From a phage, in sequence record NC_101842.1: a stretch of DNA of 64,000 nt, one strand, 5' to 3'. The notes under the pieces are model-generated. The model worked only from the letters and a program-made list of their open reading frames with translations. It made no database searches and was not told the DNA's origin. Below, in pieces: positions 16,836 to 41,575 of the stretch (within the stretch, counting starts at the first letter, position 1; the number at the start of each line of letters is the position of its first letter). The position numbers and the translations under genes are program-made.

Positions 16836-17127
16836 AAACATTACCCCAGCAGGGTTCTTAAAAGTATACCGTGAACTGCTATATACTACAGAGGACAGTG
16901 TTCTAGAGTATCCAGAATATCTTTTGCTGTATAAGTATCTGCAGGAGGCTGGTGAAAATCTGCCAGTTAGTGCAGAAGGTGGTCCGAACTGGATATACAG
17001 CGCATGGAGAAAGGTTGACATTCTCCCAGATCCAGGTAAAGATATGGTAGTTTGGCAGCTTATCAACAACATTGGGATTCCAATCTTTGATGAAGCTGTT
17101 AAAATCTATTTTGAACTTGACGATTAA
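16825..17127 (+). CDS. hypothetical protein
   Basis: ATG at 16825 after AGGAG; track ORF 16807-17127 trimmed. Confidence 0.5.
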   Translation: MKTENITPAGFLKVYRELLYTTEDSVLEYPEYLLLYKYLQEAGENLPVSAEGGPNWIYSAWRKVDILPDPGKDMVVWQLINNIGIPIFDEAVKIYFELDD

Positions 17128-17144
17128 TATCAGGAGACCTTAAG

Positions 17145-17390
17145 ATGACTGAAGTAGTTGCTCGCGCAGGACAGAAAGTACGTTGTGTTGAAGTAGGTTT
17201 TGGTGGCAAAGGGTGTCAAAACTTGACTCAAGGTAAGGAATACGCTGTTATTTCTGGTGGTGGCGACGAAAGTATTGTGTTCGAGGGCCACATCCTGGAT
17301 GCTGAAAACTTTGAAATCTTTGACGACGATGGGGATCCGATCACCTGCCTGCTGGACGGGAATTGGGGAACTTTCGAAGTGATTGGCTAA
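17145..17390 (+). CDS. hypothetical protein (DDDGD motif, related to paralog families A/B)
   Basis: CAGGAGA RBS; block FDDDGDPITCLLDGNWG. Confidence 0.6.
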   Translation: MTEVVARAGQKVRCVEVGFGGKGCQNLTQGKEYAVISGGGDESIVFEGHILDAENFEIFDDDGDPITCLLDGNWGTFEVIG

Positions 17391-17473
17391 CAAATACCTA
17401 TTGTAATTTGCAGAAGGGGATGCTAAAATAGTGTCTCCTTCTATGTTGTTCAAATAAAATCGGAGATTCCATA

Positions 17474-17839
17474 ATGGAACAAATGAACGATCAAGCGTCG
17501 GTTGCGATGAACGAGCAAGAACAACCTCAAGAATTTTTCTTAGGGTTAAGTAAAGATCAAGTGTCTCTTCTGCTAGTGCTTTCTTCTTTCATGGGAAGAC
17601 TTCAGGAGCTCACACAACAACCAGAGGCTGAACAATTATTTCAAGCTCTGCGTGAAGAAGAAAAATATCGTCGTTTGGACTATGCCTTAGGTTGGGTAGC
17701 TCAACAACGAGATATGCTGATGGCCCTCTCTGGGACCACAAGTTTTGCAATGGGGCTGTTGGCTCAAGTTCAGGACAAATTAATTCAAGCAGGGTTTGCA
17801 CACACGGCAAACACTAACGAAGAACAAGGAGACAAATAA
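17474..17839 (+). CDS. hypothetical protein
   Basis: GGAGA RBS; Q/E-rich. Confidence 0.6.
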   Translation: MEQMNDQASVAMNEQEQPQEFFLGLSKDQVSLLLVLSSFMGRLQELTQQPEAEQLFQALREEEKYRRLDYALGWVAQQRDMLMALSGTTSFAMGLLAQVQDKLIQAGFAHTANTNEEQGDK

Positions 17840-19065
17840 TGAGCGTTATTCAACAATTCGCTAACCCGATGAATCCGCGTGAAACTGTTTTACTGGCTCA
17901 CGGCATGATTAAACGTGTCAGCATCAAGCCTATCAAAGGTGCTGATCCTACAACAGGTATTAAAACCACTGTGTGGCAAGGTAAGAAAATTGAATCCAGC
18001 CACACCATCTCTTTACTGATTTCTGAACTGGATTCCTCTGATAACCTGCTTCAAAGTGGTGAAGAAGTTTGGATCAGCATGGGTGATAAGCTGCTTAAAC
18101 CTGGTCATCAAGACTCTGTCTCTGTTAAAATTGATGACAAGTGGGAAACCGTAACGCCGGGATGGATCGTAAATATCCCTTTGAAGGCAAACGAGCATAA
18201 CGGTAAGACCTATTACAAAGGCTCACTGGCTAAGATGGTCAAGCTGGGTGCAGGAGAGGCTCCAGCAGCGACTCAGCAGCAAAAACAGCAACAAGGTGCA
18301 CAATCACAAGGCCAGAAGCAGAAACCTCAGCAGAATGCCAATCAGGACGTTTTACGCATCTATGGCGATGTGACTCAGATTGTTGGCAACGTGGTTACTG
18401 TTAATGACCACAAGATTGGCGAAGGTGCTATGGTTGTAACTGATGAGCAGCTTAAAGACCTGGTGGTAGGTGGTCGTGTTGCAGCCATTGTTGACAAAGA
18501 CACCGGAAACATTATCAGTGGTTTCAAAGCCTATCCCCCTAAGGCAGAGAACGGCACTCAAGGCTCCGGTGGCAAGCGTAAATCCTCTTACGACCCTATC
18601 GGTGTGGAAACGGGGCATAGCATCAATGCGTTGCAGATCATCCTGGATCGCGGGTTTAAGGTAGACGACCCACTGGGCGTGGCTAAAACACTGCACGTAG
18701 TCACCATTGAGCTTAAGAAAGAGTATGCTCAAGCCACCAACCGAACTGAAGATGAAGTAGGTGCCAGTGTCGGTAATGCGGTGTTGAACGCTTGTCGCCG
18801 TATTGACAAGAAAACGAAAGTTGATGATTTTGCAGCGGCAATTACTGCAGAAGCAAAAGATGTCTTGACTAATCTGGCTGAACCGTTGTACGATTGGATC
18901 AAGAACGGTGCTGGGTCAACTGACTATCAAGAACCCCAGGCTGCCAAACAGGAAGCAGCTCCACAGCAAAACACTGTAGACGCTCCTCCTGTAAATGATG
19001 AGGAAGATGACCCAATGGATCAGAATCCAGCACAGTATACCTTTGATGATGACATCCCTTTTTAA
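17839..19065 (+). CDS. putative ssDNA-binding protein with SSB-like acidic C-terminal tip
   Basis: Ends ...FDDDIPF, identical in the last residues to E. coli SSB; Q-rich low-complexity linker; sits in the replication module; AAGGAGA RBS. Confidence 0.55.
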   Translation: MSVIQQFANPMNPRETVLLAHGMIKRVSIKPIKGADPTTGIKTTVWQGKKIESSHTISLLISELDSSDNLLQSGEEVWISMGDKLLKPGHQDSVSVKIDDKWETVTPGWIVNIPLKANEHNGKTYYKGSLAKMVKLGAGEAPAATQQQKQQQGAQSQGQKQKPQQNANQDVLRIYGDVTQIVGNVVTVNDHKIGEGAMVVTDEQLKDLVVGGRVAAIVDKDTGNIISGFKAYPPKAENGTQGSGGKRKSSYDPIGVETGHSINALQIILDRGFKVDDPLGVAKTLHVVTIELKKEYAQATNRTEDEVGASVGNAVLNACRRIDKKTKVDDFAAAITAEAKDVLTNLAEPLYDWIKNGAGSTDYQEPQAAKQEAAPQQNTVDAPPVNDEEDDPMDQNPAQYTFDDDIPF

Positions 19066-19080
19066 CATCTAGTTAACATA

Positions 19081-19110
19081 GCCCTGCCCGAAAGGGTGGG
19101 GCATTTTTGT
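19081..19110 (+). terminator. rho-independent terminator (repeated element, copy 2)
   Basis: Same CCCTGCCC-GAAA-GGGTGGGG hairpin followed by CATTTTTG. Confidence 0.6.
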
Positions 19111-19127
19111 ATAAGGAGATCTGAAAA

Positions 19128-19544
19128 ATGACATTAGAAGATATCATTGTTAAGCCTGAGAACTATGACCAATACAACCTGTCAACTCAATCTGTAGACC
19201 TTGGATGCGCCACGGTCAGTGCGTGGCTGGTTAACGGAAAAGAGCTGGATAAATGCTTAGAAGCTCACATGTCTATTAACAAGTTTCTGGATGAAAATAC
19301 TCACTGGCTTGAGGGTGCAGGCGTATATGCTTCATGGTTGGATAGTATGGGATTCGACTACCAATCTGAAGAGGGGTGGTGGAGCTATTTAGCTATCTGT
19401 CCAGAGACGCTACAATGCTTCATGAAATATTCTGAAGATTTGGAGTACCGGGCGGTGGTTGATAGTGCTATTGCCCGTTATAGCCGTAAACCTTTTTCCC
19501 ACGACATTAAAACTGTGGAAGAATTTGTTGAAGTTTTCTGTTGA
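19128..19544 (+). CDS. hypothetical protein
   Basis: AAGGAGA RBS. Confidence 0.6.
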   Translation: MTLEDIIVKPENYDQYNLSTQSVDLGCATVSAWLVNGKELDKCLEAHMSINKFLDENTHWLEGAGVYASWLDSMGFDYQSEEGWWSYLAICPETLQCFMKYSEDLEYRAVVDSAIARYSRKPFSHDIKTVEEFVEVFC

Positions 19545-19640
19545 CACAGATTGAAAGGTGTGCAATTATAACTTCATAGAACGGGAGGACGTGATGAACG
19601 AAGAAAACTGGGATGTATAACTAACAGGAGGCCACTGCCC

Positions 19641-19838
19641 ATGATTTATCGAATCCGTGTAAGAGAAGATGCACCAGGCTGTTACTTTGACTGGCGTGGG
19701 TGGTGGTTTATCCACCCAATGGATGGACTCACAGATAGAATGCTGGATGCTGCCCTTTACACAGATACCGACATAGAATATAATCTCTATCTGAAGGACG
19801 GTATAGATAACGGCCTGTTTGAAGCAATTCCTGTGTAA
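19641..19838 (+). CDS. hypothetical protein
   Basis: CAGGAGG RBS. Confidence 0.55.
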   Translation: MIYRIRVREDAPGCYFDWRGWWFIHPMDGLTDRMLDAALYTDTDIEYNLYLKDGIDNGLFEAIPV

Positions 19839-19906
19839 GAGACTGTGATAGCTATGTTTTATGATCTTCCTGTAGCGCCACCACCTGTTGAACCAGGAGA
19901 ACTAAG

Positions 19907-20332
19907 ATGATCTATGAAATGCCAAAACTGATTCGTGACGATGCCCAAAACGCTCACACCATTATTATGGGCAAACGCATGGATATTATTTGTCATAAAG
20001 ATTTCTGGGAAGGAAGTTACTTCACAGAGTATTTTGGTAAACTGGACAATGGTCTGCTGATCCAGTTCTACACCGATGCGGAAAACAACATTCCCTGGGA
20101 GTTCGAAACTGAAGATGTCTATAAACTTTTCACCTTCCTCGGTATTAAGGTTAAGGCCAAGTTTGAAGAAGGTGAGTGCGACGATTGTGGATTTTATGAG
20201 GTAACAGATTTCTACCTTCCTAGCGGTAAGAACCTTTACTATGAAAGCCACTTCGGTAACTCCAATATGCCACAGTGCTGGACTGAGTTTTTTGAAATTG
20301 CGGAAGAGGAGCTGGCTTACCGTGATTATTGA
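19907..20332 (+). CDS. hypothetical protein
   Basis: CAGGAGA RBS; directly upstream of, and overlapping, the macro-domain gene. Confidence 0.6.
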   Translation: MIYEMPKLIRDDAQNAHTIIMGKRMDIICHKDFWEGSYFTEYFGKLDNGLLIQFYTDAENNIPWEFETEDVYKLFTFLGIKVKAKFEEGECDDCGFYEVTDFYLPSGKNLYYESHFGNSNMPQCWTEFFEIAEEELAYRDY

Positions 20333-20780
20333 TACTGTAGAGGGAGATTTAATCTCCCTTTTTAAGAGCGGTGCTGGTCACCTGATCCACGGTTGTAACT
20401 GCTTCCACACAATGGGCAAGGGTATAGCAAAACAGATTGCCCGTGAGTTTCCTCAAGCACTGTCAGCCGACAAAGAGACTAGATACGGTTGCCTAAGTAA
20501 ACTGGGTGCGTTCTCCCGATGGGAGCACTTATCTCCGATAGGTATTGTCTACGGAATCAATCTATATACCCAGTTCTACCCAGGACCTAATGCTGAGTAT
20601 TTCTCAATCCTGAAAGGCTTTGAGCTAGTCAATGAAGTATTCAGCGGATCGACTTTACCATTCTACATCCCTAAGATCGGGTGCGGCATAGGCGGTTTGA
20701 AGTGGGAACACGTAGAGGACGTTATTAACCTTGCCACTTTCGACATAGATATTGTCGTGGTGGAGTACAAAAAGTGTTGA
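20322..20780 (+). CDS. macro-domain protein, TARG1/OARD1-like (putative ADP-ribose hydrolase)
   Basis: Motif HLIHGCNCFHTMGKGIAKQIAREF resembles the macro-domain fingerprint of the TARG1/DarG-type branch; probable GTG start at ~20322 overlapping upstream stop. Confidence 0.7.
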   Translation: MIIDTVEGDLISLFKSGAGHLIHGCNCFHTMGKGIAKQIAREFPQALSADKETRYGCLSKLGAFSRWEHLSPIGIVYGINLYTQFYPGPNAEYFSILKGFELVNEVFSGSTLPFYIPKIGCGIGGLKWEHVEDVINLATFDIDIVVVEYKKC

Positions 20781-21031
20781 CGACCATCTTCTGAGGTGAT
20801 ATAGTTTCCACGACAACTAAGAGAGGAGAGCACTGTGGAGACTAAAATCTTAATTCTTGCTGTGGTAGATACAACCGAAGGAGCTATATTCGAATCTGCA
20901 GGAGGGTATTTCTACCTACCATACGGAAAAAGAACTTCCGAGCCAAGTAAAGATTCAATCCTCAAAGTGTTCCCGTGTGCTTTCTGGCTGGAGATTTTGG
21001 TATAAGATTGCAGAGGATTTGGGAGAGAATT

Positions 21032-21226
21032 ATGAGAAACAAGAAAGAACTTTACTCCGGTGAGTGGATCAACGATCAACAGGTGGGAGAGGTAACCTGC
21101 TTCCGATGTTTTACCAGGTACAATCTTAAAACTGCACCAAAAAGTGTTCCAAAGACTGACGGTTACTACATAAAAGAACCTCATTGCCCAAAATGTAAAT
21201 GCCGATTGTACTGGAGCAATCTGTAA
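21032..21226 (+). CDS. small zinc-ribbon protein
   Basis: CxxC...CxxC (CFRC...CPKC); GGGAGAGAA RBS; track ORF 20975-21226 trimmed. Confidence 0.5.
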   Translation: MRNKKELYSGEWINDQQVGEVTCFRCFTRYNLKTAPKSVPKTDGYYIKEPHCPKCKCRLYWSNL

Positions 21227-21230
21227 GAGG

Positions 21231-21258
21231 TTGACATCTGAAAACTGCAGTGTATAAT
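21231..21258 (+). promoter_or_regulatory. sigma70 consensus promoter
   Basis: TTGACA, 16-nt spacer, TATAAT, upstream of the ORF at 21290. Confidence 0.55.
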
Positions 21259-21289
21259 ATACGCATAAACTAACAGAGGGTGATGTATT

Positions 21290-21481
21290 ATGGTAATTTT
21301 TAACCGGGATGGTATCATAGTTAGACAGCACCCGTTCCTTGAATACTATCAAATTGAGCAATGGTGCTACGGGGATTGCAGTCACTCCTATGGGCAAAGT
21401 TGGGGATATCGTACAGTTTTTGAATCCACAGACCTTGACAAAGTAAAACAGAAAGTTTTAGAACTTCTTAACAACAAGTGA
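21290..21481 (+). CDS. hypothetical protein
   Basis: AGAGGG RBS downstream of consensus promoter. Confidence 0.55.
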   Translation: MVIFNRDGIIVRQHPFLEYYQIEQWCYGDCSHSYGQSWGYRTVFESTDLDKVKQKVLELLNNK

Positions 21482-21491
21482 GTATCGTGCC

Positions 21492-21824
21492 ATGGTAACA
21501 TTGGAAAGACGTAAAGCTATTGCCGCCACACTGGCAGACATCTTTTGGGATTGTAATTTAAAATCTACCCGAAATTGTGGTGCATCTGTAGATGTATTAT
21601 TCCCACGGCCTACTATTGTTGCAATGGGCAACCTGCTCGATGTGGTATATGGAGCATGGGACAAGGAAGGTGGATTCTATATCTGGCAACCTGACTACGG
21701 GACTTGGAAAGAGGTTAGTGGTTCTTCGGACTTCACTCCTGCAGTGGCTAAAATGGATGGCTGGAAAATCTATGTCGGTAACGACATGGAACTGAAAGGC
21801 GAAATTGTTTACTGGTTACCTTAA
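21492..21824 (+). CDS. hypothetical protein
   Basis: ORF in same-strand array; weak RBS. Confidence 0.5.
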   Translation: MVTLERRKAIAATLADIFWDCNLKSTRNCGASVDVLFPRPTIVAMGNLLDVVYGAWDKEGGFYIWQPDYGTWKEVSGSSDFTPAVAKMDGWKIYVGNDMELKGEIVYWLP

Positions 21825-21845
21825 GAAAGTCCAGGAGATAAAGTT

Positions 21846-22091
21846 ATGAACAAAGGGTGGACATTTGTAGACGGCGTTAAAAACATGCCTCTAGGAAAGT
21901 ATATTGTAGCCATGGCAGATGAGAATGGCAAGGTTGATTTCGGAGTTTGCGAGGTTGTTCTTGCAGGATCTGGTGACTATGCTCACAAAACTGGGATAAT
22001 TAACGGTCATTTCTACTTTGATTACAACCCTGTTGTGGCGTATATGGCTATGCCAGAGTTCGAGCTCCCAAAGGAAGGTGCAGATGTTTAA
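21846..22091 (+). CDS. hypothetical protein
   Basis: CAGGAGA RBS. Confidence 0.6.
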   Translation: MNKGWTFVDGVKNMPLGKYIVAMADENGKVDFGVCEVVLAGSGDYAHKTGIINGHFYFDYNPVVAYMAMPEFELPKEGADV

Positions 22092-22156
22092 GCTTAAATC
22101 TGCATGGAACATCGCTGTGGGGGGACGAGATCCGTATCCCAGGTGGAAAGACCATT

Positions 22157-22282
22157 ATGAAAATATCTCGTATCGAGTACGAAGGTGATCGTGTATTTCA
22201 TATCTTTGCAGAAGATGGTCGAGAAATTTATATACAGGCAGGCTCTCACATCTATATTCGTAAGAAAGGGGAGGACAAATGA
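22157..22282 (+). CDS. small hypothetical protein (41 aa)
   Basis: Not in ORF track (<60 aa); GGTGGAAAG RBS; stop overlaps next start (ATGA). Confidence 0.4.
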   Translation: MKISRIEYEGDRVFHIFAEDGREIYIQAGSHIYIRKKGEDK

Positions 22283-22608
22283 CAGAGATCATCATTTCAA
22301 CTGCAGGGTATGTATTCCTGACAATCATTGCGCTGGCTATTCTGGTGGCGGTGTATGGATTTGTTATCCTTCCTATCCTTGAGACATTTAGTTTGTGTCG
22401 GTGTTGGAGAAAAGCTTACGGTCCACAACCATGGAAGGACTGGCCCCACCTGGTGCGCTTAGCGTTCTCTTATGCTTACGATCACTCCAGTAGTGCATGC
22501 ATAACCGGATACCACGCCCACAACTGGAGCTGGGAAGGGTTGAGGAAATGGAATGTTACAAAGACCATACCTCTGCGCATGTACAAACCTAAAAACAAAG
22601 ACAACTGA
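22279..22608 (+). CDS. membrane protein (hypothetical)
   Basis: N-terminal hydrophobic helix YVFLTIIALAILVAVYGFVILPIL; GGGGAGG RBS. Confidence 0.6.
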   Translation: MTEIIISTAGYVFLTIIALAILVAVYGFVILPILETFSLCRCWRKAYGPQPWKDWPHLVRLAFSYAYDHSSSACITGYHAHNWSWEGLRKWNVTKTIPLRMYKPKNKDN

Positions 22609-23220
22609 TACTTGAAAATTCCTGGCATATCAAGTATAAGGGGGATTTCTAAAATGGATTTCCTCCTTTTGATATTTCACCGGGCTGGATATTTTAAAAT
22701 TCTTAGAAAATCAGAAAATGGATCGAAAACTAAAATGGATTTTTCAGAGTAGGCGCGACAAGCTGAATAACTCATCCTATCGTTTGCACCATATTCCAGG
22801 CCACCATTATAGATTTCCCACACATGCTAACCTCCCTCTACTAGAACTTCCTCCACTTACCCTTGACCTTCTATGGTAACAATCTAACCGCTATCTTGAA
22901 GTTGCGGTGCAGCTTTCCAGGTACTCGATCTACTTTTCATTTCAGGGCTTGGATTTTCTGAAAATTTTTCTCGATAAATTTCTCAGTACTCGATCTGTTT
23001 TTCGTTTTCTGAATCGGATTTTCTGGAAATCGTTCCGGCTCTCAACCTGAAATTTTTGGGGACGAAATCGATTTTTCGTTTTCAGAAATGGATTTTTAAA
23101 ATTTCTATATGGGAATATTTTAGTGGATACTATTTTATAGTAAATTGTTACGGAGGGTAATTAGCGTGCTAATTAAATTTATTAAATGCGAGGAGTTCTC
23201 ATTTAGAATCTTGAATGATA
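22609..23220. repeat. non-coding repeat region: ~66-bp imperfect tandem duplication plus AAATGGAT motifs
   Basis: GTACTCGATCT at ~22921 and ~22987; GGATTTTCTGAAAAT / GGATTTTCTGGAAAT; AAATGGAT at ~22651, 22715, 22732, 23086; no ORFs. Confidence 0.6.
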
Positions 23221-23425
23221 ATCATTCTCGTTTGCAGAATAACGGGCAGGCCCGGTGATTGTCTCCCGGCCCCTGTTGCCCCGGCTTGTTATTATAGTAT
23301 CACACAGGACAAAGAAAGCAAGGATTTTTTTTGCATAAATTTTTAAATGATAATGATAACCGTTCTCATTTTATGCAGCGCTCATCCCTGGTGGTTGTCT
23401 CCCCCGTCACCGGTGCCTGCCGTCC
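23215..23425. repeat. two direct copies of a GC-rich element with GTCTCCC core
   Basis: GGCAGGCCCGGTGATTGTCTCCCGGCCCC (~23245) and GGTGGTTGTCTCCCCCGTCACCGGTGCCTGCCGT (~23390), each preceded by GATAATNATT...CTC. Confidence 0.5.
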
Positions 23426-23623
23426 TTTCGATAGGTATATTGTGCCACCTGTCGGGGCCGCTGTCAACACTTTTCAAAAAATTTTTCTAACCTGATGCGC
23501 TAACCGCTGCAACCTGGCAGGGCCAGCCTGGCAGGACCTAACTGACCAGGTGGGAGAGGGTGAAATCTTGCAAACCTGGTAGGCCCATGCTGTAGGGTAA
23601 ACAATTGAAGAGGAGGTACAAAA

Positions 23624-41257: not shown

Positions 41258-41575
41258 TCATTCTCCAAAGTCAATCTTTACTTTGCCTTTCCCCTTACCT
41301 TTCTTTCCACCGCATTTAGCCAGCTGACGTGCTGCAACATCTACCATACGGTCAGTTGCCTCGTAAGCATCACTACCTTTAGCCTTGGCAATAACTTCTT
41401 TTCCAGAATTGTCAAAAATGAACGCCATAACTTCCTGGTGATCATTTTCAACTTTTACACTCACACGTGCATAGTTGGCAGAGGGGTGCAAACGCTCCAG
41501 TTTAGACATTTTGTTGGAAATGAAAGACACCATACCTTCAGTGATTTCTACGTTGCCAGTGATTTCAATTTGCAT
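41258..41575 (-). CDS. hpf: ribosome hibernation promoting factor / RaiA-family protein
   Basis: Aligns along its length to E. coli HPF as I recall it: MQIEITGNVEITEG...KLE...VKVE...AKAKGSDAYEATDRMVDVAARQLAK; own promoter and 5' hairpin. Confidence 0.8.
   Translation of the reverse strand: MQIEITGNVEITEGMVSFISNKMSKLERLHPSANYARVSVKVENDHQEVMAFIFDNSGKEVIAKAKGSDAYEATDRMVDVAARQLAKCGGKKGKGKGKVKIDFGE

What the first reader, a model, noticed from the sequence alone, without database searches (positions are those of the whole stretch)
19907..20780. TARG1/DarG-like macro domain: candidate counter to ADP-ribosylation
ORF 20322-20780 carries the macro-domain fingerprint HGCNC...MGKGIAKQIAREF, closest in pattern to the TARG1/OARD1/DarG branch. 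Enzymes of that branch remove ADP-ribose from protein and from DNA thymidine as modified by DarT toxins. A phage copy is therefore a plausible counter-defence against DarTG-like systems. It overlaps an upstream unknown gene (19907-20332) that may be a partner.
Basis: partly seen in the sequence, partly recalled or inferred. Interest (0 to 1): 0.7.

Follow-up and report, generated by a model that had tools for sequence, protein, structure and literature searches.

The report
Phage macrodomain, T4 Tk.4/AdfM homolog
This rV5-like E. coli phage carries a small ADP-ribose-removing enzyme whose phage T4 homolog was recently shown to protect T4 from the bacterial DarTG2 defence, so the gene is real and probably a counter-defence, but it is a new member of a known kind.

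Summary
ORF 20322(GTG)-20780 (+) encodes a 152-aa macrodomain with the quoted motif, and it overlaps ORF 19907-20332 by 11 nt. The window is a Vequintavirus (100% identical over the 3-kb query, window 19000-22000, to Escherichia phages naswa and magaca).

The protein belongs to the TARG1/DarG/SCO6735/Poa1p (ALC1-like) class (AF2 pLDDT 97; Foldseek TARG1 3e-10). It is a full-length homolog of T4 Tk.4 (39% identity, E 3e-41; 70% to the syntenic Krischvirus tk.4). A 2025 preprint named Tk.4 AdfM and showed genetically that it is T4's anti-DarTG2 factor.

The TARG1/DarG catalytic Lys is absent. An invariant Gln (Q84) sits there, as in SCO6735, where that Gln is essential and the enzyme cleaves thymidine-linked ADP-ribose on DNA.

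Best reading (about 0.6): an orphan, antitoxin-like hydrolase that removes DarT2's ADP-ribose from phage ssDNA.

Main rival: an ADPR-1''-phosphate phosphatase (Adpp), a function shown for NARP1-linked relatives. Those have a different signature, and neither the window nor the complete genome of the close relative APECc02 has a NARP1 gene.

The upstream gene is an orphan with no fold match. It lies 9 kb from tk.4 in Krischvirus and matches 176 of the phage records against 2771 for the macro, so a partner role is unsupported.

New member of a known kind; modest interest.

The parts
20322..20780 (+). Macrodomain gene (152 aa, GTG start), Tk.4/AdfM-type
   Evidence: Pfam Macro, PHROG 335, DarG-profile match over the macro part, AF2 pLDDT 97.1, Foldseek TARG1/Poa1p/DarG, 39% identity to T4 Tk.4.
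20388..20402 (+). H23-G24-C25-N26-C27 motif. N26 is the equivalent of Taq DarG N22, PhiKZ AdfM N23 and SCO6735 N27. H23 is the equivalent of SCO6735 H24.
   Evidence: Alignments. N26 and G24 are invariant in 62 homologs. The role of the Asn comes from PMC9411070 and PMC13309987.
20559..20573 (+). N80-L-Y-T83-Q84 motif. Q84 occupies the position of the catalytic Lys of DarG (K80) and TARG1 (K84), and of the essential Gln85 of SCO6735.
   Evidence: Independent HMMER and MAFFT alignments agree. N80 and Q84 are invariant in 62 homologs.
20676..20696 (+). I119-G-C-G-I-G-G125 diphosphate-binding loop. The TARG1 D125 position is Gly, as in DarG.
20306..20311 (+). GAGGAG Shine-Dalgarno for the GTG start, inside the 3' end of the upstream ORF
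   Evidence: Read from the sequence.
19907..20332 (+). Upstream overlapping gene (141 aa, PHROG 8157). Probably co-transcribed, function unknown, not shown to be a partner.
19756..19784 (+). Sigma-70-like promoter candidate (TTTACA-17-TATAAT, 11/12) upstream of the two-gene unit
   Evidence: a consensus scan only. The region holds 22 such sites against 11.6 +/- 3.8 in shuffles.
19081..19102 (+). Strong intrinsic-terminator-like hairpin closing the preceding unit
   Evidence: The same site is annotated as a terminator in HdK5.

Best explanation
The gene encodes a stand-alone, catalytically competent macrodomain of the T4 Tk.4 (AdfM) type. It is an 'orphan antitoxin-like' enzyme, probably made early from host-type promoters. 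Proposed mechanism, step by step. (1) It binds the ADP-ribose moiety in the canonical macro cleft (the MGKGIA and IGCGIGG loops); the fold and motifs are shown here. (2) It hydrolyses the C1'' N-glycosidic bond between ADP-ribose and thymine on single-stranded phage DNA modified by the host toxin DarT2. It would use the Asn26/Gln84 pair to position the distal ribose and a water molecule, as proposed for SCO6735, rather than a Lys nucleophile. This step is inferred. (3) This keeps the phage DNA replicable and so defeats DarTG2 abortive infection; this is inferred from the T4 tk.4 knockout phenotype. The protein lacks DarG's C-terminal DarT-binding domain, so any direct inhibition of DarT would have to come from the macro fold itself.
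For: Macro fold and class. Full-length homology to T4 Tk.4: 39% identity, 122 bits, E 3e-41, with shared HGCNCFHTMG and NLYTQFxPGPN motifs. It is 70% identical to Krischvirus JSE tk.4, which sits at the syntenic vs-tk.4-tk locus. The window protein and T4 Tk.4 group together, excluding the NARP1-linked relatives, in 79% of 300 NJ bootstraps. T4 tk.4 is the single DarTG2-specific hit in a transposon screen, and a clean knockout sensitises T4 to DarTG2. A more distant phage macrodomain, PhiKZ gp104, removes DarT2 ADP-ribose from DNA in vitro. Gln-type chemistry is validated in SCO6735: Q85A, Q85E and N27S lose activity, and the enzyme cleaves dT-ADPr and rescues DarT toxicity. The equivalents N26 and Q84 are invariant in 62 homologs. 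The gene behaves as an accessory gene under selection. The Bas54 ortholog (83% identical) is non-essential on K-12, with 31/31 TA sites hit. Against Bas54, dN/dS is 0.11 with dS 1.15, while neighbouring genes have dS 0-0.25, which indicates a swapped divergent allele kept functional. Deleted or frameshifted alleles occur in other assemblies.
Against: No assay was done on this protein or on any Vequintavirus. The T4 evidence is genetic and from a preprint; no biochemistry exists for any Tk.4-type protein. Identity to T4 Tk.4 is only 39%. A member of the same broad family (Vibrio phage Gary Adpp, about 35% identical) is a proven ADPR-1''-phosphate phosphatase, so the family is not mono-functional. 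The catalytic Lys of DarG and TARG1 is missing. SCO6735's Val25 is Gly here, and its Lys-rich mobile loop is absent.
Confidence: 0.6

Rival explanations
1. It is an Adpp-like ADP-ribose-1''-phosphate phosphatase (Poa1p-like) that converts the aRES product ADPR-1P to ADPR.
For: RefSeq and PHROG label the family 'phosphatase'. Poa1p is among the top sequence and fold matches. Gary KNV71_gp137 (Adpp), shown biochemically to dephosphorylate ADPR-1P, is a homolog (35% identity, 68 bits). Homologs sit between the Prs-like Adps and NAMPT-like Namat genes in Vibrio phages Ceto and Gary, and next to those genes in Pseudomonas phage C11.
Against: Adpp is useful only with NARP1: inactivating any of the three genes abolished anti-defence. 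tblastn with Gary Adps and with Gary and C11 Namat finds nothing at E<=1 in the window or in the complete genome of APECc02, which is 99.9% identical to the window over the 3-kb query. The annotation of that genome lists neither gene. Adpp-type proteins differ in signature: H-Q-C-N, Y-G-Q, a 12-14-residue loop and GLAGG, against H-G-C-N, Y-T-Q, a 7-residue loop and GIGGL here and in T4 Tk.4. The BLAST score to T4 Tk.4 is nearly double that to Gary Adpp (122 against 68 bits).
Confidence: 0.12
2. It is a general ADP-ribosyl-protein or O-acetyl-ADP-ribose hydrolase. It would serve the phage's own NAD-consuming enzymes (for example the Sir2-family protein encoded elsewhere in Vequintavirus genomes) or reverse host ART toxins acting on protein or RNA.
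For: TARG1 and SCO6735 also act on protein Glu-ADPr. TARG1 is deposited in the PDB under the name O-acetyl-ADP-ribose deacetylase 1, and JGI gives some homologs the same automated label. APECc02 carries a genuine Sir2-family gene (Pfam E 3e-27).
Against: The Sir2 gene is about 50 kb away in APECc02 (71.2 kb in that genome), which corresponds to a position beyond the end of the window. The Pfam families listed for 97 window ORFs include no ART (only the first 25 of 35 families are shown). SCO6735 was inactive on 2'-OH RNA ADP-ribosylation, and that paper's results report it inactive on 5'-phosphate-linked ADP-ribosylation as well. The only phenotype reported for a Tk.4-type gene is DarTG2-specific.
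Confidence: 0.1
3. The macro gene and the overlapping upstream gene form a two-component counter-defence module, for example with the upstream protein binding DarT in trans, like DarG's C-terminal domain.
For: There is an 11-nt overlap with the SD inside the upstream ORF, and no terminator lies between them. The adjacency is the same in every Vequintavirus record examined. The upstream protein folds confidently (pLDDT 91.5) and has a strongly conserved C-terminal motif. Both genes have their nearest outside relatives in Krischvirus.
Confidence: 0.07
4. It is a non-catalytic ADP-ribose binder or sponge, for example for Thoeris-type ADPR-derived signals.
For: Macro folds bind ADPR derivatives, and the classical catalytic Lys is absent.
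Against: The Asn/Gln pair that is essential for catalysis in SCO6735 is invariant across 62 homologs. Family members have an enzymatic function (Gary Adpp, biochemical) or a function read as enzymatic (T4 Tk.4, genetic).
Confidence: 0.03

Closest known systems
T4 Tk.4 = AdfM (anti-DarT factor Macrodomain; HIDEN-SEQ preprint 10.1101/2025.11.20.689424) and its Krischvirus orthologs (JSE/GEC-3S tk.4)
   Same: Same length and single-domain architecture. It is 39% (T4) and about 70% (JSE, GEC-3S) identical over the full length. The signature is the same: HGCNCFHTMG, NLYTQ-x-PGPN, a 7-residue loop, and IGCGIGGL (IGAGIGKG in T4). Like Tk.4, it lies among short accessory genes, and its Bas54 ortholog is non-essential on K-12.
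   Different: The genome neighbourhood differs: it lies downstream of the DNA polymerase, after an orphan gene, rather than in vs-tk.4-tk. No phenotype has been measured for the Vequintavirus copy. Two deeply diverged alleles circulate within Vequintavirus (dS 1.15).
SCO6735 (Streptomyces coelicolor) and BT1257: Gln-type TARG1-like macrodomains
   Same: It has Gln at the catalytic-Lys position, the partner Asn, His23 and the Gly-rich loop. SCO6735 cleaves thymidine-linked ADPr-DNA and rescues DarT toxicity.
   Different: Identity is about 26%. SCO6735 Val25 is Gly24 here. The loop after the Gln is short and lacks the Lys residues of SCO6735's mobile loop. The Gly-rich loop reads GIGGL rather than GLAGG.
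DarG2 antitoxin macrodomain (M. tuberculosis 5M3I, T. aquaticus 5M31/5M3E) and PhiKZ gp104 AdfM
   Same: Same fold class. The conserved Asn, the loop length and the x-G-G-L Gly-rich loop match. It is the top single-sequence PDB hit (E 1e-6) and matches the NCBIfam and PADLOC DarG profiles.
   Different: Lys80 is replaced by Gln. There is no C-terminal DarT-binding domain and no adjacent darT gene. PhiKZ gp104 groups with DarG (100% bootstrap) and is only 20% identical to this protein.
Adpp (Vibrio phage Gary KNV71_gp137), the NARP1-associated ADPR-1''-phosphate phosphatase, and yeast Poa1p
   Same: Same broad phage family (the PHROG 335 'phosphatase' family), Gln-type, about 33-35% identical. 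It shares the H-x-C-N-C motif with Poa1p.
   Different: No NARP1 genes are present. The signature differs (H-Q-C-N, Y-G-Q, long loop, GLAGG). The window protein clusters with T4 Tk.4 instead.
Human TARG1/OARD1
   Same: Best Foldseek match (E 3.4e-10, TM 0.78-0.85) and same class.
   Different: The K84/D125 dyad is absent (Q84/G) and TARG1 Ser26 is Asn here. Identity is about 25%.

Membership tests
Macro domain superfamily (Pfam PF01661) | Profile match above the curated cut-off | tested here: met
   28 bits against a cut-off of 22, E 2.2e-6, although only the N-terminal 31 profile positions align. The family profile hits more than 14 PDB macrodomain sequences at E 4e-17 to 2e-10 over the full length.
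Macro domain superfamily (Pfam PF01661) | Three-layer alpha/beta/alpha macro fold with Gly-rich ADPR-binding loops | tested here: met
   AF2 pLDDT 97.1, pTM 0.91. Foldseek to TARG1, Poa1p, DarG and viral macrodomains, probability 1.00. The MGKGIA and IGCGIGG loops are conserved.
TARG1 (OARD1) | Catalytic dyad Lys84/Asp125 | tested here: not met
   The aligned residues are Gln84 and Gly.
DarG (type II antitoxin, NCBIfam NF048014) | Whole-protein score above the equivalog cut-off, that is macro plus the C-terminal DarT-binding domain | tested here: not met
   46.8 bits against a cut-off of 250. Only profile positions 3-141 of 338 match, and the protein is 152 aa.
DarG (type II antitoxin, NCBIfam NF048014) | Catalytic Lys80 (Taq numbering) | tested here: not met
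   It is Gln84, invariant in 62 homologs.
DarG (type II antitoxin, NCBIfam NF048014) | Conserved active-site Asn (Taq N22) | tested here: met
   N26 aligns and is invariant.
DarG (type II antitoxin, NCBIfam NF048014) | Operon partner darT | tested here: not met
   The upstream gene has no PADLOC, NCBIfam or Pfam match. It is a phage genome, and the Pfam families listed for 97 window ORFs include no DarT (only the first 25 of 35 families are shown).
AdfM, T4 Tk.4-type | Full-length homology to T4 Tk.4 | tested here: met
   39% identity over 153 aa, E 3e-41. 70% identity to the syntenic Krischvirus tk.4. 79% bootstrap grouping with T4 Tk.4, excluding the Adpp-type.
AdfM, T4 Tk.4-type | Shared signature H-G-C-N-C-F-H-T-M-G, N-L-Y-T-Q-x-x-P-G-P-N, short loop | tested here: met
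AdfM, T4 Tk.4-type | Needed for plating on DarTG2 hosts and dispensable otherwise | not testable with these tools
   Only the dispensability half is known, from published data: Bas54 ortholog bas54_0092 is non-essential on K-12.
AdfM, PhiKZ gp104-type (DarG2-like) | DarG-like sequence with Lys78 and Asn23 | tested here: not met
   20% identity, E 1e-4. gp104 clusters with Mtb DarG in 100% of bootstraps, apart from this family. The Lys is replaced by Gln.
Adpp (NARP1-AP phosphatase) | Gene located in or next to an Adps-Namat (NARP1) operon | tested here: not met
   tblastn with Gary Adps and with Gary and C11 Namat gives no hit at E<=1 in the window or in the whole APECc02 genome. Annotation.
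Adpp (NARP1-AP phosphatase) | Homology to Gary KNV71_gp137 | tested here: inconclusive
   35% identity, 68 bits, so homologous, but less similar than T4 Tk.4, and the motif signature differs.
SCO6735-type Gln macrodomain | Gln85, Asn27 and Gly128 equivalents | tested here: met
   Q84, N26 and the Gly-rich loop align. Their roles come from PMC9411070.
SCO6735-type Gln macrodomain | Val/Ile25 and the extended Lys-bearing mobile loop | tested here: not met
   It has Gly24 and a 7-residue loop against 12-13 residues.

The most novel reading that the evidence does not exclude
The Tk.4-type branch may be a mechanistically distinct, Gln-based 1''-ADP-ribosyl hydrolase with DarG-like loop geometry. 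Its specificity would have diverged from a common phage ancestor shared with the metabolite phosphatase Adpp. The Vequintavirus enzyme could be bifunctional (dT-ADPr DNA and ADPR-1''-P or other 1''-linked adducts). The tightly overlapped orphan upstream gene could add a DarT-directed or other defence-directed activity in trans.
Probability: 0.12. Interest if true: 0.55.

Novelty: new member of a known kind. Interest (0 to 1): 0.3.

Why it matters
If confirmed, AdfM-type anti-DarTG2 activity would extend from T-even and nucleus-forming phages to the Vequintavirinae, a broad-host-range group used in phage therapy collections. Homologs match about 5% of sequenced phage records (2771 of 50,697), so DarT2-like DNA ADP-ribosylation would be a widespread selective pressure. 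The family now has two published activities (AdfM and Adpp) on one Gln-type scaffold. The sequence signatures separated here (H-G-C-N / Y-T-Q / short loop against H-Q-C-N / Y-G-Q / long loop) give a testable rule for annotating these genes, which databases currently call 'phosphatase' or 'hypothetical protein'.

Tried and rejected
1. DarG membership is rejected. Only the macro part matches, Lys80 is Gln, and there is no C-terminal domain and no darT gene.

2. Closeness to PhiKZ AdfM is rejected: 20% identity, and gp104 clusters with DarG.

3. Deep phylogenetic placement by NJ bootstrap is unresolved: 44% with SCO6735/BT1257, 38.5% with DarG, 9% with TARG1. The first attempt, with Biopython bootstrapping, timed out.

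5. A 3189-aa eukaryotic VWD-repeat protein matched the upstream gene's C-terminal motif seven times. I judge this a motif-level resemblance (CGxY...FGNxN/W), not homology.

6. A NARP1 link for this phage is rejected by tblastn.

8. A literature search for 'AdfM' alone was swamped by unrelated matches.

Full report
**What is there.** The 3-kb stretch around the finding (window 19000-22000) is 100% identical to Escherichia phages naswa and magaca. It is 95-99.9% identical to many other Vequintavirus (rV5-like) genomes.

The flagged ORF runs from a GTG at 20322 to a TGA ending at 20780 on the + strand (152 aa). An in-frame ATG at 20241 would give 179 aa. The GTG is the start used in deposited relatives, and it coincides with the N-terminus MII(D/K)... 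of T4 Tk.4, JSE tk.4 and most of the 62 aligned homologs. A GAGGAG lies 10 nt upstream.

The quoted fingerprint is present: HGCNC at residues 23-27 and MGKGIAKQIAREF at residues 31-43. The upstream ORF 19907-20332 overlaps the macro start by 11 nt.

A strong terminator-like hairpin at 19081-19102 and sigma-70-like promoter candidates at 19541-19569 and 19756-19784 precede the pair. No terminator separates the two genes. They are therefore probably co-transcribed, possibly early. This rests on consensus scans only.

**Is it a macrodomain of the claimed branch? Yes.**
- Pfam Macro scores above its cut-off (28 against 22 bits).
- PHROG 335 ('phosphatase') matches at E 2e-59.
- The NCBIfam and PADLOC DarG models match the macro portion at E 2e-12 and 3e-13, far below the DarG whole-protein cut-off.
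- A single-sequence PDB search puts the M. tuberculosis DarG macrodomain first (E 1e-6), then Poa1p, BT1257, SCO6735 and TARG1.
- A profile of 62 homologs hits BT1257, Mtb DarG, SCO6735, TARG1, Taq DarG and Poa1p almost equally (E 4e-17 to 2e-13). Coronavirus and MacroD-type domains follow only at E about 0.01.
- AlphaFold2 gives pLDDT 97.1 and pTM 0.91.
- Foldseek ranks TARG1 (E 3.4e-10, TM 0.78-0.85), Poa1p, DarG, BT1257 and SCO6735 on top.

**Catalytic residues.** Independent HMMER and MAFFT alignments agree on the following.
- The Lys that is catalytic in TARG1 (K84) and DarG (K80) is Gln84 here.
- TARG1 D125 is Gly here, as in DarG.
- The active-site Asn (Taq DarG N22, PhiKZ N23, SCO6735 N27) is N26.
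- N26, N80, Q84 and G24 are invariant across 62 homologs down to 33% identity.

This is the configuration of SCO6735. In that enzyme Gln85 sits at the Lys position. Q85A, Q85E and N27S lose activity. The enzyme cleaves thymidine-linked ADP-ribose on DNA, rescues DarT toxicity, and is proposed to use a positioned water rather than a Lys nucleophile (PMC9411070). The absence of Lys/Asp therefore does not argue against hydrolase activity, but it does mean the protein is not a DarG or a TARG1.

**Closest characterised relative.** tblastn against 50,697 phage records finds homologs in 2771 of them. Outside Vequintavirus the best are the tk.4 genes of Krischvirus (GEC-3S 69.5%, JSE 70%). These lie at the same vs-tk.4-tk position as T4 tk.4. 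T4 Tk.4 itself is 39% identical over the whole length (E 3e-41) and shares the HGCNCFHTMG and NLYTQFxPGPN motifs.

A November 2025 preprint (10.1101/2025.11.20.689424) reports three things about tk.4. It is the single significant DarTG2-specific hit in a T4 transposon library. A clean knockout sensitises T4 to DarTG2. The authors name it AdfM.

Independently, PhiKZ gp104, also named AdfM, removes DarT2 ADP-ribose from DNA in vitro (PMC13309987). That protein is Lys-type. It groups with Mtb DarG in 100% of bootstraps and is only 20% identical to the window protein. The two 'AdfM' proteins are therefore separate recruitments of macrodomains.

**A second published function in the same family.** While checking genomic contexts I found homologs between a Prs-like and a NAMPT-like gene in Vibrio phage Ceto, and next to such genes in Pseudomonas phage C11. 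These are NARP1 operons.

A January 2026 preprint (10.64898/2026.01.28.702374) covers the macro protein of Vibrio phage Gary's NARP1 operon, which it names Adpp. That protein dephosphorylates ADPR-1''-phosphate, the product of the aRES defence, so that NARP1 can rebuild NAD+. All three genes of the operon are required.

Gary Adpp is 88% identical to the Ceto protein and about 33-35% identical to the window protein (68 bits, against 122 bits for T4 Tk.4).

| Feature | Tk.4-type (window, Bas54, JSE, T4, a Felix-O1-like phage) | Adpp-type (Gary, Ceto, C11) |
|---|---|---|
| First motif | H-G-C-N | H-Q-[CA]-N |
| Second motif | Y-T-Q | Y-G-Q |
| Loop after the Gln | 7 residues | 12-14 residues |
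| Gly-rich loop | GIGGL (GIGKG in T4) | GLAGG (GLAGE in C11) |

The Adpp-type features resemble SCO6735 and BT1257. phAPEC8 and PVP-SE1 are close to the Adpp-type. The window protein groups with T4 Tk.4, excluding the Adpp-type, in 79% of 300 NJ bootstraps.

tblastn with Gary Adps and with Gary and C11 Namat finds nothing (E<=1) in the window or in the complete APECc02 genome. Its annotation lists no such genes. An Adpp role in the published sense is therefore unlikely here, but the family is clearly not mono-functional. Both reactions remove a substituent from C1'' of the distal ribose, so dual activity cannot be excluded.

**Behaviour of the gene in populations.** The Bas54 (MaxBurger) ortholog bas54_0092 is 83% identical. 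All 31 of its TA sites tolerated transposon insertion on E. coli K-12, and the authors class it as non-essential. The upstream gene bas54_0091 is non-essential too.

Between the window and Bas54 the macro gene is the most diverged of 17 neighbouring genes (82% amino-acid identity against 88-100%).
- Its dS is 1.15, against 0-0.25 for the neighbours.
- Its dN/dS is 0.11.
- Nucleotide identity drops from about 20207 and is complete again in the next gene, 20835-21002.

This is the pattern of a divergent allele swapped in by recombination and kept under purifying selection.

Other assemblies carry inactivated alleles.
- One has a 508-bp deletion between the 10-nt direct repeats CCAGTTCTAC at 20062 and 20570. 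It fuses the upstream ORF's N-terminus to the macro C-terminus.
- One has an internal deletion.
- Two have frameshifts.

Dispensable, exchanged, sometimes lost, yet constrained when present: this fits an accessory counter-defence gene.

**The upstream gene.** It belongs to PHROG 8157 (unknown function). Homologs match 176 phage records: Vequintavirus, where the gene is adjacent to the macro in every record examined, and Krischvirus. In Krischvirus JSE the homolog lies next to dam, 9 kb from tk.4. A phmmer scan of 1.84 billion representative proteins finds 11 relatives.

It is unrelated to T4 vs, the gene that precedes tk.4 in T4, and it has no DarG-profile match. The overlap is best read as ordinary translational coupling in a compact phage operon. 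A functional partnership is not excluded, but nothing found here supports it.

**Verdict.** The gene is a Tk.4/AdfM-type orphan macrodomain. It is most likely a DNA (thymidine) ADP-ribosyl glycohydrolase countering DarTG2 (confidence about 0.6), using Gln/Asn-based rather than Lys-based chemistry.

What is shown: the ORF, the fold, the class, the residue pattern, the homology, the genomic context and the population behaviour. What is inferred: the substrate, the mechanism and the phenotype.

The concept and the T4 homolog are already published, and several deposited genomes already label the gene 'macro domain protein'. It is therefore a new member of a known kind. The points of remaining interest are the Gln-type mechanism and the AdfM/Adpp functional split within one phage family.

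Noticed in passing
window 20062-20071 and 20570-20579: A 10-nt direct repeat, CCAGTTCTAC, occurs in the upstream ORF and in the macro ORF in the same codon phase. A 121-aa protein from another 135.5-kb assembly (P0017) is exactly the in-frame fusion expected from deleting the 508 bp between the repeats. P0019 is an internal-deletion allele, and P0037 and P0052 are frameshifted alleles.
   Followed up: partly
window about 20200-20780: Against Bas54 the macro gene has dS 1.15 and dN/dS 0.11, while flanking genes have dS 0-0.25. This is a recombined, deeply divergent allele cassette whose left boundary lies inside the 3' end of the upstream ORF.
   Followed up: yes
window 20100-20329 (C-terminal half of ORF 19907-20332): An orphan protein with a very conserved Cys/His/Trp-containing motif (CDxCG...LPSG...HFGNxNxPxxWxEF), a confident AF2 model and no fold match. 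A eukaryotic 3189-aa VWD-repeat protein (P0103) matches the motif seven times, which is probably motif-level resemblance only.
   Followed up: partly
L009:3135-6149 (Vibrio phage Ceto), L013:1629-4659 (Gary), L010:1-3480 (Pseudomonas phage C11): Homologs of the macro protein sit inside or beside NARP1 operons (Prs-like Adps plus NAMPT-like Namat). These are the published Adpp phosphatases, and they carry a different motif signature from the Tk.4-type.
   Followed up: yes
L011:21200-21961 (APECc02 71200-71961; beyond the end of the window): The close relative APECc02 encodes a genuine Sir2-family protein (Pfam E 3e-27) next to a gene annotated as a nucleotide pyrophosphohydrolase. It is another NAD-consuming enzyme in the same phage type, with no evident link to the macro gene.
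   Followed up: partly
window 19065-19128 and relatives: Several relatives (Bas54, and by their annotation nom, DrSchubert and EmilHeitz) carry a homing or HNH endonuclease gene near here, between the 408-aa gene and the next ORF. CM1 and I29 have an extra insertion of about 640 bp annotated as endonuclease VII within the 3-kb region. The window has neither.
   Followed up: no
window 20975-21226 (+): A small ORF two genes downstream matches Pfam PF23903, 'Phage zinc binding domain' (E 1.6e-22). It is not annotated in APECc02.
   Followed up: no
window 21231-21258 (+): A perfect 12/12 sigma-70 consensus (TTGACA-16-TATAAT) lies here. Promoter-like sites in 17000-23500 are about twice the shuffled expectation, which is consistent with a host-polymerase-transcribed early region.
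   Followed up: no
window 41261-41575 (-): A phage-encoded ribosome hibernation / S30AE-family protein (Pfam PF02482, E 1.1e-12).
   Followed up: partly
whole region (database records MG0656xx): Sixteen records named 'Campylobacter phage' (15 list the host as C. jejuni) match this E. coli Vequintavirus region; the two listed are about 96-97% identical. The host labels look doubtful.
   Followed up: no
L014:3995-4780 (Felix-O1-like phage Tribble): A Tk.4-signature macrodomain is fused to a C-terminal extension of about 100 aa of unknown function (261 aa in total).
   Followed up: no
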